This document shows, piece by piece, positions 30,011 through 32,232 of a DNA stretch of 64,000 bases (its first letter is position 1; each line of letters begins with the position of its first letter). The stretch lies in IMG/VR virus record IMGVR_UViG_2778261540_000003; one strand, 5' to 3'. The DNA is from a virus. Lineage: Duplodnaviria; Heunggongvirae; Uroviricota; Caudoviricetes. The notes under the pieces are model-generated. The model saw only the letters and a program-made list of their open reading frames with translations, had not been told where the DNA came from and ran no database searches. A program made the position numbers and the translations under genes.

Positions 30011-32025
30011 AAGAGCTGTGCTATGGATCTGTTTGCAGTGGAATTGAAGCCGCGAGTATTGCCTGGGAACCGTTGGGTATGCGTCCTGCGTGGTTTGCTG
30101 AAATCGAGTCTTTTCCATCTGCCGTTCTTGCGCACCGCTGGCCCCATGTCGCCAACCTTGGCGACATGACAAAACTTGCCAAAAAAGTCCTGGCTGGGGA
30201 AATCGAATCCCCTGATGTGCTCGTCGGGGGAACACCTTGTCAGGCATTCAGTATCGCGGGATTACGTGGTGGGCTTGATGATGAGCGTGGCGCGCTAACT
30301 TTAAAGTATGTGGAGCTTGCAAATGCAATTGACGACAAACGGGCTGAGTCATTTCTCAAACCAGCCGTTATCGTCTGGGAAAATGTCCCAGGAGTCTTGT
30401 CATCGGCAGATAACGCCTTCGGATGTTTCCTTGCTGGATTGGCTGGAGAAGATGTGCCATTTGAACCAGGTGATCGACCTGAATCAGGAAAAAGCAACGC
30501 GTTCTGGCGGTGGGATGGCAAAACCGGTTGCCATGTTCCAAAGTGGCCGCAGTGTGGTTGTATTTATGGACCGCAGCGAAAGGTGGCCTGGAGAATCCTT
30601 GATGCCCAATACTTCGGAGTGGCACAACGACGCCGACGCGTGTTTGTTGTCGCAAGTGCTCGAACAGACCTCGATCCCGCAACGGTACTTTTTGAGTTCG
30701 AAGGCGTGCGCCGGAATATTGCGCCGAGCAGAGGCGAGGGGAAGGAAACTACCAGATATACTTCAGACATCGCTATCAGATCTTGCGATGATACAAACAT
30801 AGTTGCCATGGCACATGGGCAAGGAGGGGCTGAGATAAAAACCGATAATTCGGCACCAACTTTGACATGTAACCATGAAGCACCAATTGTATTGCTCGGC
30901 GACGGTAGAATGCGCCGTCTTACCCCTGTCGAATGTGAAAGGCTGCAAGGTTTTCCTGATGGACATACATTGATCCCTACGGAAAAGCGTAAAAAAGTTT
31001 CTTCAGATGAACTGGCATACCTTCGCAAAAACTCTCCTGATTTGAACGAAGAAGAGGCCGCAATGCTTGCAGCTGACGGACCGCGTTACAAAGCGATCGG
31101 CAATAGTATGGCGATACCAGTAATGCGCTGGATTGGCGAGCGGATAACCAAGGCTGCATGTCGGCAGAATGAAGGGCGTGAAACAAAAGAGCGAAAAGTT
31201 AAACCAGCGGCAGAATTCGAACGGTCCATATTCAAATGGGCTGGTGGAAAATTTGGTGTTCTGGAACAAATCTTTCGCTATTTGCCAGAAGGGAAGCGCC
31301 TGATTGAACCTTTCGTCGGTGGTGGAGCTGTCTTCATGAATGCCGGATACCAGGAAAATCTGCTAAATGATGTGAATGCTGACCTGATTAACTTTTACAA
31401 GACTCTGCAACGCGAGGCGCATTCACTTATCACTCTGGCACATCGTTTCTTCCAGGACTACAACACCCAGGAGGGATTCCTGGCAGTACGGAATGCGTTT
31501 AACAAACAAGTCTATGATGATTTACATCGCGCAGCGGCGTTTTTGTTCCTGAACCGACATTGTTTTAACGGATTGACGCGTTACAACCAGGCCGGTGAGT
31601 TCAATGTCGGTTATGGGAAGTATAAAACTCCGTATTTCCCATTACAGGAGATGGAAGCCTTCCTCGGTGCGGAAGGGCGGTCTGAGTTTGTATGCGGTGA
31701 TTTTGCAGCGGTGATTGAAGCTGCCGGAGAAGGAGATGTCATCTTTTGCGATCCGCCGTATGAACCGCTTCCAAATACAGAGGGATTCACGAACTATTCC
31801 GGTCATGACTTTAAGTTTGAAGAGCAAAAACGCCTGGTGTCTCTGTTGACGGATGCTCATCGTCGAGGTGCAAAGGTTCTCATTACTAACAGTGGCGCGC
31901 CAAACATCAGAGAGCTTTATCATGACAGTGGCTTCAGAGTGGAACATCTTTTTGCCAGACGTTCTGTGTCTTGTAAGGGGGACACTCGAGGTGTAGCTCA
32001 TGACGTTTTGGGTATATTGCTCTAA
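30007..32025 (+). CDS. dmt: Bifunctional DNA methyltransferase (C5-cytosine plus Dam-like N6-adenine)
   Basis: N-terminal C5-MTase motifs ([29 protein letters not shown]); C-terminal half aligns with E. coli Dam ([21 protein letters not shown]). Confidence 0.85.
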
Positions 32026-32043
32026 TAAATTTATTAGTGTAAT
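32016..32043. promoter_or_regulatory. Overlapping inverted C1-operator-like sites
   Basis: ATTGCTCTAATAAATTT (perfect) overlapping an inverted copy AAATTTATTAGTGTAAT, across the dmt stop. Confidence 0.7.
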
Positions 32044-32206
32044 ATCGCCTCAATGAATCGTGATTTATAGAGCGATTTAGCTGTTAGCCGCGACAGGCGC
32101 GGCGGTAAGCATGGCTGGGCCTAGTCCTCCCAGACAAACCACCGAGTTGCCAGGTTGACCATGCGCCTAAGTGGCAACGCCGAAGTGCGTTACGAGCTTC
32201 CAGTTT

Positions 32207-32232
32207 GCCCATCTTCGGGTGGGCGTTTTTTT
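32207..32232 (+). terminator. Rho-independent terminator
   Basis: GCCCATC-TTCG-GGTGGGC hairpin followed by seven Ts. Confidence 0.6.

What the first reader, a model, noticed from the sequence alone, without database searches (positions are those of the whole stretch)
32016..32232. Candidate small transcript bounded by a perfect operator and an intrinsic terminator
A perfect operator copy with an overlapping inverted partner (32016-32043) is followed about 170 nt later by a strong intrinsic terminator (32207-32232); the interval contains only a 15-codon ORF. This is the architecture of a repressor-controlled small RNA or leader peptide upstream of the tRNA cluster.
Basis: seen in the sequence. 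Interest (0 to 1): 0.45.

Follow-up and report, generated by a model that had tools for sequence, protein, structure and literature searches.

The report
P1 ban-operon promoter with DicF-precursor-like leader
This is the already annotated repressor-controlled promoter of phage P1's ban operon, and its first ~180 bases encode a folded leader RNA, related to the long precursor of the E. coli division-inhibitor RNA DicF, that ends at a strong terminator.

Summary
The window is a phage P1 variant. Positions 32016-32043 are the bivalent C1 operator Op72ab, overlapping promoters P1ban/P2ban of the ban operon. A canonical intrinsic terminator lies at 32206-32232. All of this, plus a 'dicF-like region', is already annotated in the P1 GenBank record. 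The 'small RNA' reading is partly right and the 'leader peptide' reading is wrong: the 15-codon ORF is cut to 3 codons in P7. The predicted ~180-nt RNA (about 32052-32232) is not DicF by Rfam. Its 5' part (32087-32178) is a conserved pseudoknotted RNA domain, also found just upstream of DicF in Qin and in prophages of seven enterobacterial genera. There, domain plus DicF fits the published 190-nt 'long DicF' species in length and position. Compensatory changes support the fold, including two double changes between P1 and P7, so the domain is maintained in P1 without a DicF body. No Rfam family covers it. It does not match HK022, the phage that carries put. Most likely the RNA is a C1-gated structured leader or short RNA whose terminator splits transcription between a short RNA and read-through into the tRNAs and ban. 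What the domain does is unresolved.

The parts
32016..32032 (+). C1 operator Op72a (Obana), perfect 17-bp consensus
   Evidence: 0 mismatches. Annotated as a protein_bind feature in AF234172. Identical in the reference P1 and in P7.
32027..32043 (-). C1 operator Op72b (Obanb), the overlapping inverted half of the bivalent operator
   Evidence: 2 mismatches. Annotated in AF234172 and in P7.
32017..32045 (+). Sigma-70 promoter P1ban: -35 TTGCTC at 32017-22, 17-bp spacer, -10 TAATAT at 32040-45. The predicted P2ban has -35 at 32000-05 and -10 at 32026-31.
   Evidence: Coordinates transferred from the AF234172 annotation (locus coordinate + 29399). The generic consensus scan does not call it, because it matches only 7 of 12 positions.
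32052..32232 (+). Predicted primary leader RNA of about 180 nt. The start is inferred 7-8 nt after the -10; the 3' end is in the U-tract.
   Evidence: Inference from the promoter and terminator positions. Folding. About the same length and layout as the 190-nt long DicF species of Qin.
32054..32079 (+). Predicted 5'-terminal stem-loop (UGAAUCGU/GCGAUUUA)
   Evidence: Minimum-free-energy and centroid structures. Identical in P7. No covariation data.
32087..32178 (+). Conserved pseudoknotted RNA domain. P2 pairs 32087-92 with 32098-103. Pj pairs 32103-06 with 32141-44. The pseudoknot P3 pairs 32109-14 with 32159-64. P4 pairs 32115-19 with 32129-33 and has a CCUAGUCCU loop. P5 pairs 32146-52 with 32172-78.
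   Evidence: Covariance model R1 matches 32073-32198 at 90.8 bits, E about 1e-23. Covariation on 40 distinct sequences: 95.4% of cells paired, 14 pairs changed on both sides, 0 of 500 shuffles as high. P1 and P7 differ by compensatory double changes in Pj and P3. No Rfam match.
32111..32158 (+). 15-codon ORF lying inside the RNA domain; judged non-coding
   Evidence: Translation. P7 has a stop after 3 codons. Non-triplet indels among homologues.
32179..32205 (+). Linker, in the position that the DicF seed occupies in Qin; not DicF-like in sequence
   Evidence: No RF00039 hit at E up to 10. No complementarity above chance to ftsZ or to the window.
32206..32232 (+). Intrinsic terminator: 8-bp stem, UUCG loop, U7
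   Evidence: The same hairpin is conserved in P7 and D6.
32140..32242 (+). Approximate span of the 'dicF-like region' misc_feature of the reference P1 record
   Evidence: AF234172 68791-68892, mapped through alignment A4.
32699..32852 (+). tRNA-Asn and tRNA-Thr, the first read-through products
   Evidence: ARAGORN and Rfam.
35013..36383 (+). ban (DnaB-like helicase), the distal gene of the operon controlled by Op72
   Evidence: ORF list. Annotation of MH422554 and AF234172. The operator is annotated 'controls expression of ban'.

Best explanation
The feature is the head of phage P1's ban operon.

In a lysogen, C1 repressor bound to the bivalent operator Op72ab covers the -35 and -10 of P1ban/P2ban. 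From my own knowledge, not tested here, Bof assists C1 at this operator. When C1 is lost, transcription starts near 32052.

The first ~180 nt do not code for protein. They fold into a 5' hairpin and then a compact pseudoknotted domain (32087-32178). A short linker and a strong intrinsic terminator (32206-32232) follow.

Polymerases that stop there release a ~180-nt RNA. Its layout corresponds to the 190-nt 'long DicF' species of the Qin dicBF operon: the same 5' domain, but a different and much shorter 3' part that is not DicF. In P1 a promoter sits where Qin has an RNase III cut. Polymerases that read through make tRNA-Asn, tRNA-Thr, the downstream genes and ban. The terminator therefore works as a leader attenuator.

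Shown here: the identity of the operator and promoter by annotation, the terminator, the homology, and the covariation-supported fold.

Inferred: the start site, release of the 180-nt RNA, and the split between termination and read-through.

My preferred role for the domain is a stabilising and processing scaffold for the short RNA. This is a weak preference and is unproven.
For: Identity. The window is P1. Op72ab, P1ban/P2ban and the 'dicF-like region' are annotated at exactly this place. P7 is annotated likewise. The operator is perfect.

Terminator. It is canonical and the only strong one on the path to ban.

Homology. Window 32088-32182 is about 77% identical to a segment just upstream of dicF in Qin. 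Matching segments occur in 4416 of 5426 E. coli genomes. The segment is also present next to DicF-like hairpins in Citrobacter, Serratia, Trabulsiella, Erwinia and Izhakiella. Model R1 scores P1 at 90.8 bits and Qin at 152 bits.

Fold. 95.4% of cells pair, 14 pairs change on both sides, 0 of 500 shuffles reach the observed values, and slid controls pair at 30-56%. G-U pairs fit the + strand.

Selection in P1-type phages. Outside hairpin P4, P1 and P7 differ at only five positions in this stretch (one more lies just past P5). Four of them form two compensatory pairs, U-A to C-G in Pj and C-G to U-A in the pseudoknot.

Published RNA species. Qin makes a stable 190-nt DicF species whose 5' end comes from RNase III, and RNase E converts it to 53 nt (PMC10448788). 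Counting 190 nt back from the DicF 3' end lands within a few nt of the 5' edge of the domain (L003 1486). [quoted passage not shown]
Against: The start site, the 180-nt product and the terminator efficiency are all inferred. One P1 RNA-seq paper holds none of the search terms ban, dmt, tRNA, tciA, dicF or non-coding.

The generic promoter scan does not call P1ban.

The outer closing helix seen in most prophage copies is missing in P1 and P7, so the P1 copy could be partly degenerate.

A scaffold or processing role does not explain why P1 keeps the domain after losing the DicF body, nor why 36 columns of the domain are invariant.
Confidence: 0.75

Rival explanations
1. The conserved domain is a cis-acting RNA antiterminator that works like HK022 put. 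The nascent fold would bind RNA polymerase and let it pass the terminator just downstream, so that the tRNAs and ban (in P1) or dicB and the recombination genes (in lambdoid prophages) are expressed without an N-type protein.
For: The domain always lies a few tens of nt upstream of an intrinsic terminator that downstream genes must cross. In P1 it is the first thing transcribed, and the terminator looks strong. The small upstream proteins checked in Qin and mEp460 match no N-type antiterminator family. The domain is conserved whatever the sRNA body is: only 1 of 15 diverse loci scores as DicF, and P1 has no DicF body at all. Published data show both terminated and read-through transcripts in Qin.
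Against: Model R1 finds nothing in the HK022 genome. The architecture is a multi-helix pseudoknot of about 95-125 nt, unlike the two-stem put RNA of about 70 nt. Only one strong terminator lies on the way to ban, so processive antitermination is not required. I saw no conserved alternative pairing with the terminator. Nothing here bears on polymerase binding.
Confidence: 0.15
2. The ~180-nt RNA, or the domain alone, is a trans-acting structured RNA with a job of its own, for example binding a host or phage protein or Hfq. The terminator would merely give it a 3' end.
For: The domain has 36 invariant columns and a pseudoknot maintained by compensatory change. The P4 loop keeps a pyrimidine-rich UCCU core while its stem changes. 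The 190-nt form accumulates in stationary phase in E. coli. An Hfq-enriched interval lies upstream of dicF. P1-type phages keep the domain without DicF.
Against: No partner is known. There is no match to any Rfam family. The strict adjacency to a terminator or sRNA hairpin is equally expected for a cis role.
Confidence: 0.2
3. It is a true DicF orthologue that blocks host cell division by pairing with ftsZ mRNA, as the GenBank label 'dicF-like' suggests.
For: It sits in the homologous position, after the shared 5' domain, and ends in a hairpin plus U-tract preceded by UUUG as in DicF. The second dicBF-derived block downstream (33431-33551) shows common ancestry of the operon segment.
Against: RF00039 gives no hit at E up to 10 in P1, against 76.7 bits in Qin. 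The CUCC-containing hairpin loop is absent in P1; published work places ftsZ pairing near the DicF 3' end (PMC5069750), and that it is this loop that pairs with the ftsZ ribosome-binding site is my own reading. Duplex energy with the ftsZ start region is no better than for shuffles (a crude test).
Confidence: 0.05
4. It is a leader-peptide attenuator, in which translation of the 15-codon ORF controls termination.
For: An ATG-initiated 15-codon ORF lies between the promoter and the terminator.
Against: P7 has a stop after 3 codons. Homologues carry 1-, 4- and 5-nt indels in the ORF. Changes are compensatory for helices, not synonymous. The ORF ends 48 nt before the terminator stem.
Confidence: 0.02

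Closest known systems
Op72ab / P1ban promoter and 'dicF-like region' of phage P1 (GenBank AF234172 / NC_005856 annotation)
   Same: It is the same locus. The operator, promoter hexamers, leader and terminator are identical apart from one extra T in the U-tract.
   Different: The GenBank label covers only about 32140-32242 and implies DicF. Here the homology is shown to lie in the domain upstream of DicF, not in DicF itself. This window's P1 variant also carries an SPFH-domain gene where the reference has tciABC.
190-nt long form of DicF from the Qin dicBF operon of E. coli K-12 (Faubladier 1990, as cited in PMC10448788)
   Same: A homologous 5' domain (R1: 152 bits in Qin, 91 bits in P1) is followed by a short linker and an intrinsic terminator. 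The overall length is similar, about 180 versus 190 nt.
   Different: In Qin the 5' end is made by RNase III from a long operon transcript, and the 3' part is DicF. In P1 the 5' end would be a transcription start under C1 control, the 3' part is a minimal hairpin with no DicF signature, and the outer closing helix is missing.
HK022 putL/putR antiterminator RNAs
   Same: A structured RNA in an early phage operon, upstream of terminators that must be crossed, in phages for which no N-type protein was recognised.
   Different: No sequence or structure match. Different size and fold. No functional data.
sRNAs released from inside operons by early intrinsic termination (e.g. SroC, as reviewed in PMC9438474)
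   Same: One transcription unit yields both a short terminated RNA and a longer mRNA.
   Different: Here the short RNA is at the 5' end of the operon and carries a large conserved pseudoknotted domain rather than a simple seed plus hairpin.

Membership tests
P1 C1-controlled operator/promoter (Op72ab-Pban) | 17-bp asymmetric C1 consensus ATTGCTCTAATAAATTT | tested here: met
   0 mismatches at 32016-32032. 14 sites with up to 3 mismatches in the window against 0.28 expected.
P1 C1-controlled operator/promoter (Op72ab-Pban) | Bivalent arrangement of two overlapping inverted copies over a sigma-70 promoter | tested here: met
   Second copy at 32027-32043 (-) with 2 mismatches. Identical to the annotated Obanab and P1ban of AF234172. 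The generic scan does not call the promoter.
P1 C1-controlled operator/promoter (Op72ab-Pban) | C1 (and Bof) binding and repression of plus-direction transcription | not testable with these tools
   Rests on the GenBank annotation ('controls expression of ban') and on my own knowledge of the older P1 literature, which the paper library does not hold.
DicF sRNA (Rfam RF00039) | Match to the DicF covariance model at or above 48 bits | tested here: not met
   No hit at E up to 10 in 31000-35500 or in 32040-32700. Qin scores 76.7 bits.
DicF sRNA (Rfam RF00039) | Complementarity to the ftsZ translation start region | tested here: inconclusive
   The duplex energy of the P1 3' part is no better than for shuffles (fraction at least as good: 0.95 and 0.62). 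The same crude test gives only 0.18 for DicF itself.
DicF sRNA (Rfam RF00039) | Intrinsic-terminator 3' end directly after the shared upstream domain | tested here: met
5' domain of the long DicF precursor (model R1, built here) | Significant match to the covariance model over its full length | tested here: met
   90.8 bits, E about 1e-23, model positions 1-128. P1 itself was one of the 31 training sequences. P7, which was not, scores 93.4 bits.
5' domain of the long DicF precursor (model R1, built here) | Helices P2, Pj, P3 (pseudoknot), P4 and P5 kept by compensatory change | tested here: met
   P1 and P7 show double changes in Pj and P3. P4 stems differ but all fold. The outer helix is not formed in P1 or P7.
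5' domain of the long DicF precursor (model R1, built here) | Exists as a discrete RNA in cells | not testable with these tools
   Shown for Qin by Northern blot in PMC10448788. No data for P1.
HK022 put antiterminator RNA | Sequence or structure similarity to putL/putR | tested here: not met
   R1 finds no match at E up to 10 in the whole HK022 genome.
HK022 put antiterminator RNA | Two adjacent stem-loops of about 70 nt | tested here: not met
   Here the fold is a five-helix pseudoknot of about 92 nt in its core, compared with the description in PMC9378689.
HK022 put antiterminator RNA | Suppresses termination in cis without protein factors | not testable with these tools
   Needs in vitro transcription.
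Leader-peptide attenuator | Conserved translatable short ORF coupled to the terminator | tested here: not met
   P7 has a stop after 3 codons. Frame-breaking indels occur in homologues.
Intrinsic (Rho-independent) terminator | G+C-rich hairpin directly followed by a U-tract | tested here: met
   8 pairs, 5 of them G-C, UUCG loop, U7. Energy -13.7 kcal/mol.

The most novel reading that the evidence does not exclude
The ~92-nt pseudoknotted domain (32087-32178) is a functional RNA class of enterobacterial phages that has not been described as such. It travels with an intrinsic terminator at the head of early operons, and its job is independent of DicF. The most interesting version is a protein-free cis antiterminator or termination switch that is unrelated in fold to HK022 put. 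It is present in most E. coli genomes, absent from Rfam, and has so far been treated only as the anonymous 5' part of the '190-nt DicF'.
Probability: 0.3. Interest if true: 0.6.

Novelty: already known. Interest (0 to 1): 0.3.

Why it matters
For P1 itself the result is ordinary. The operator, the promoter and a 'dicF-like' label have been in the reference annotation since that record was deposited.

Two things are worth keeping.

First, the label is misleading. P1 has no DicF. It has the conserved structured domain that precedes DicF, and that domain is kept under selection in P1-type phages.

Second, that domain occurs in about 80% of complete E. coli genomes and in several other enterobacterial genera. 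It has a well supported pseudoknot and no Rfam entry. P1 offers a clean natural test of what the domain does without DicF, because there it sits directly behind a repressor-gated promoter and in front of a single strong terminator.

Tried and rejected
- Rfam at permissive thresholds on the P1 leader and on the Qin region found only tRNAs, DicF (Qin only) and sub-threshold STnc100. Nothing covers the domain.
- Model R1 against HK022 found no put-like match.
- Leader peptide: rejected on the P7 stop codon.
- DicF identity: rejected by the covariance model. The ftsZ duplex test was uninformative.
- Search for targets of the P1 linker within the window: one 11-mer against 0.58 expected, which is chance level.
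- Generic promoter scan: no call at P1ban, so the promoter rests on annotation.
- Scan for further + strand terminators between the leader and ban: only weak ones, so no case for processive antitermination.
- Search for an N-type antiterminator among the small proteins upstream of the domain in Qin and mEp460: none recognised in Pfam or PHROGs.
- The Lobocka 2004 P1 genome paper is not held.
- One P1 RNA-seq paper holds none of the search terms tried for this locus.
- Minimum-free-energy folding of the whole leader gives z = -1.7 only and does not recover the conserved fold, because pseudoknots are not modelled.
- Six hits of the genome-wide pattern scan in unrelated phyla were discarded as chance.

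Full report
**What the window is.** The 1-kb stretch around the finding is 100% identical to three deposited P1 genomes and 99.5% identical to the reference P1 records AF234172 and NC_005856. In AF234172 this exact place carries the following annotations:
- the end of dmt;
- the bivalent C1 operator Obanab, formerly Op72ab, annotated 'controls expression of ban';
- the sigma-70 promoter P1ban and a predicted P2ban;
- about 100 nt further on, a misc_feature called 'dicF-like region';
- then tRNA-Asn and tRNA-Thr, and 2.6 kb downstream ban.

P7 is annotated in the same way. The window's own variant equals MH422554. It has an SPFH-domain gene where the reference has tciABC, but the same overall order up to the DnaB-like helicase ban at 35013-36383.

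**Check of the observation.**
- The 17-bp C1 consensus is perfect at 32016-32032. An inverted copy with two mismatches overlaps it at 32027-32043. The window has 14 such sites against 0.28 expected.
- The terminator has an 8-pair stem at 32206-32225 with a UUCG loop, followed by seven T. It is the only strong terminator-like site on the + strand between the promoter and ban.
- The 15-codon ORF is at 32111-32158.

**Promoter and transcript.** Transferred from the annotation, P1ban has -35 TTGCTC at 32017-22 and -10 TAATAT at 32040-45, with a 17-bp spacer. This places the start near A32052 or A32053, which is an inference. The generic scan does not call the promoter because the hexamers match only 7 of 12 positions. 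The promoter therefore rests on the record and on older P1 work that I could not read here. The predicted primary RNA runs from about 32052 to 32232, roughly 180 nt.

**Not a leader peptide.** In P7 the same ATG is followed by a stop after three codons. Homologues elsewhere differ by 1-, 4- and 5-nt insertions inside the ORF.

**Not DicF.** Rfam run permissively finds no DicF in P1. The Qin dicF scores 76.7 bits.

**What 'dicF-like' really is.** BLAST shows that window 32088-32182 is about 77% identical to a segment present in 4416 of 5426 complete E. coli genomes and in many lambdoid phages. In K-12 this segment lies between ydfC and dicB. Its conserved core ends about 24 nt before the first base of DicF. 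A pattern scan of one genome per species found it, always followed by a DicF-type hairpin and U-tract, in seven genera: Escherichia, Shigella, Citrobacter, Serratia symbiotica, Trabulsiella, Erwinia and Izhakiella. Six further hits in unrelated phyla look like chance. The 3' partner varies widely. Only 1 of 15 diverse loci reaches the DicF gathering score. P1 has the most reduced version.

**The fold.** I aligned 31 representatives, built model R1 and realigned 45 matches. The domain contains:
- a hairpin P2;
- a four-pair junction helix Pj (CGGU/ACCG);
- a variable hairpin P4 with a pyrimidine-rich UCCU-type loop;
- a hairpin P5 of 8 modelled pairs with a 19-nt loop;
- a six-pair pseudoknot P3 between GYAUGG, upstream of P4, and CCAURC, in the P5 loop.

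Most prophage copies add an outer eight-pair helix that closes the domain. P1, P7 and three other variants lack it.

On 40 distinct sequences, 95.4% of cells pair and 14 of 34 pairs show changes on both sides. None of 500 shuffles reaches any of the five measures, and slid controls pair at only 30-56%. The P4 stems differ (CGGGG, CUGGGG, CCAGGUG, CAGGG, CCCGGG, CUGGG), and all but a few single-substitution variants fold as the expected hairpin. Frequent G-U pairs fit the + strand only.

The most telling comparison is P1 against P7. Outside P4 they differ at five positions across the 240-nt stretch. Four of these form two compensatory pairs: U-A to C-G in Pj, and C-G to U-A in the pseudoknot. 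The fold is therefore under selection in P1-type phages, which have no DicF body.

**Link to a known RNA.** Ragunathan et al. 2023 (PMC10448788) confirm earlier work on Qin. [quoted passage not shown] Both a transcript ending at the DicF terminator and a longer read-through transcript are seen. Counting 190 nt back from the DicF 3' end lands at about L003 1485-1488, the 5' edge of the R1 match at 1486-1613. This calculation is my own.

The 190-nt species therefore fits the domain plus DicF. The P1 promoter-to-terminator RNA has the same layout, with a transcription start where Qin has a processing site. Bilusic et al. [quoted passage not shown] I found no paper that describes the fold or its conservation, and Rfam has no family for it.

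**How it most likely works.** C1 on Op72ab blocks P1ban/P2ban. On derepression, the leader is made and folds. Some polymerases stop at 32226-32232 and release the ~180-nt RNA. The rest read on into the tRNAs and ban. The terminator can also end dmt transcripts that come from upstream.

**Role of the domain.** This is open. I considered three roles.
- A stabilising and processing scaffold. This fits the published RNase E and Hfq data for Qin. It explains poorly why P1 keeps the domain.
- A put-like cis antiterminator. For: the constant position just before a terminator that must be crossed, and no N-type protein recognised among the small upstream proteins checked in Qin and mEp460. Against: no R1 match in HK022, a fold unlike the put description, and only one strong terminator on the path to ban.
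- A trans-acting structured RNA.

I found no conserved alternative pairing with the terminator that would suggest a classical riboswitch. I also found no target complementarity for the P1 linker above chance.

**Verdict.** The feature itself is already known and annotated. The new points are that the 'dicF-like' label hides a conserved, covariation-supported pseudoknotted domain that is not DicF, and that P1 would be a convenient system for finding out what that domain does.

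Noticed in passing
window 33431-33551 (+): Sub-threshold Rfam STnc100 match (37.8 bits, gathering score 47). It is homologous to the DicF-dicB spacer of Qin (L003 1685-1825) and to the region before tciA in D6. An inner hairpin covaries (CCGGG/CCCGG in P1, CCUGG/CCAGG in Qin). An outer GCGGUG/CACCGC helix is followed by T6. P1 therefore carries two separate blocks of the dicBF operon, on either side of the tRNA and minus-strand gene insert.
   Followed up: partly
L087 1171-1359; L056 4732-4920; L138 963-1151: In three prophage loci the domain and its DicF-like hairpin are followed about 300 nt later by isrK (RF01394) and then a C4 antisense RNA (RF01695). C4 is the RNA family of P1's immI region.
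   Followed up: no
L147, L136, L145, L148, L049 (downstream of the domain): In the Erwinia, Serratia, Trabulsiella and Izhakiella copies and one viral contig, the DicF-position hairpin is much longer. It contains an AGGAG-like motif followed by a start codon (ATG, or GTG in L049) inside the stem, which could be a small ORF or a sequestered ribosome-binding site.
   Followed up: no
L149 (phage D6) 1182-1294 and 1505-1530: D6 keeps the same terminator hairpin, the 460-nt spacer and the tRNAs, but has a different upstream region. That region gives only a weak R1 match (11.9 bits) that shares the outer helix, GGUAAG and a P4-like hairpin but lacks P5 and the pseudoknot.
   Followed up: partly
window 32233-32698: A 460-nt spacer between the terminator and tRNA-Asn has no annotated gene. 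The ~700-nt match to D6 that contains it is 93.7% identical. Only chance-level Rfam hits fall in it. Its function is unknown.
   Followed up: no
window 33585-34629: This P1 variant (the same as MH422554) has a 78-aa ORF and a 275-aa SPFH-domain protein gene where the reference P1 has tciA, tciB and tciC. Its dmt is 672 aa, against a 2265-nt gene in the reference.
   Followed up: partly
L003 1415-1435 versus 1500-1520; L012: Qin has a partial second copy of the P2-like hairpin (aacgcgaaagcgcatgg) about 90 nt upstream of the domain. The variant L012 looks like a deletion between the two copies, which removes the 5' strand of the outer helix.
   Followed up: no
window 34657-34732: ARAGORN calls this CAT-anticodon tRNA Met. 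The P1 reference annotates the orthologue as tRNA-Ile2 (ileX-like, lysidine-dependent).
   Followed up: no
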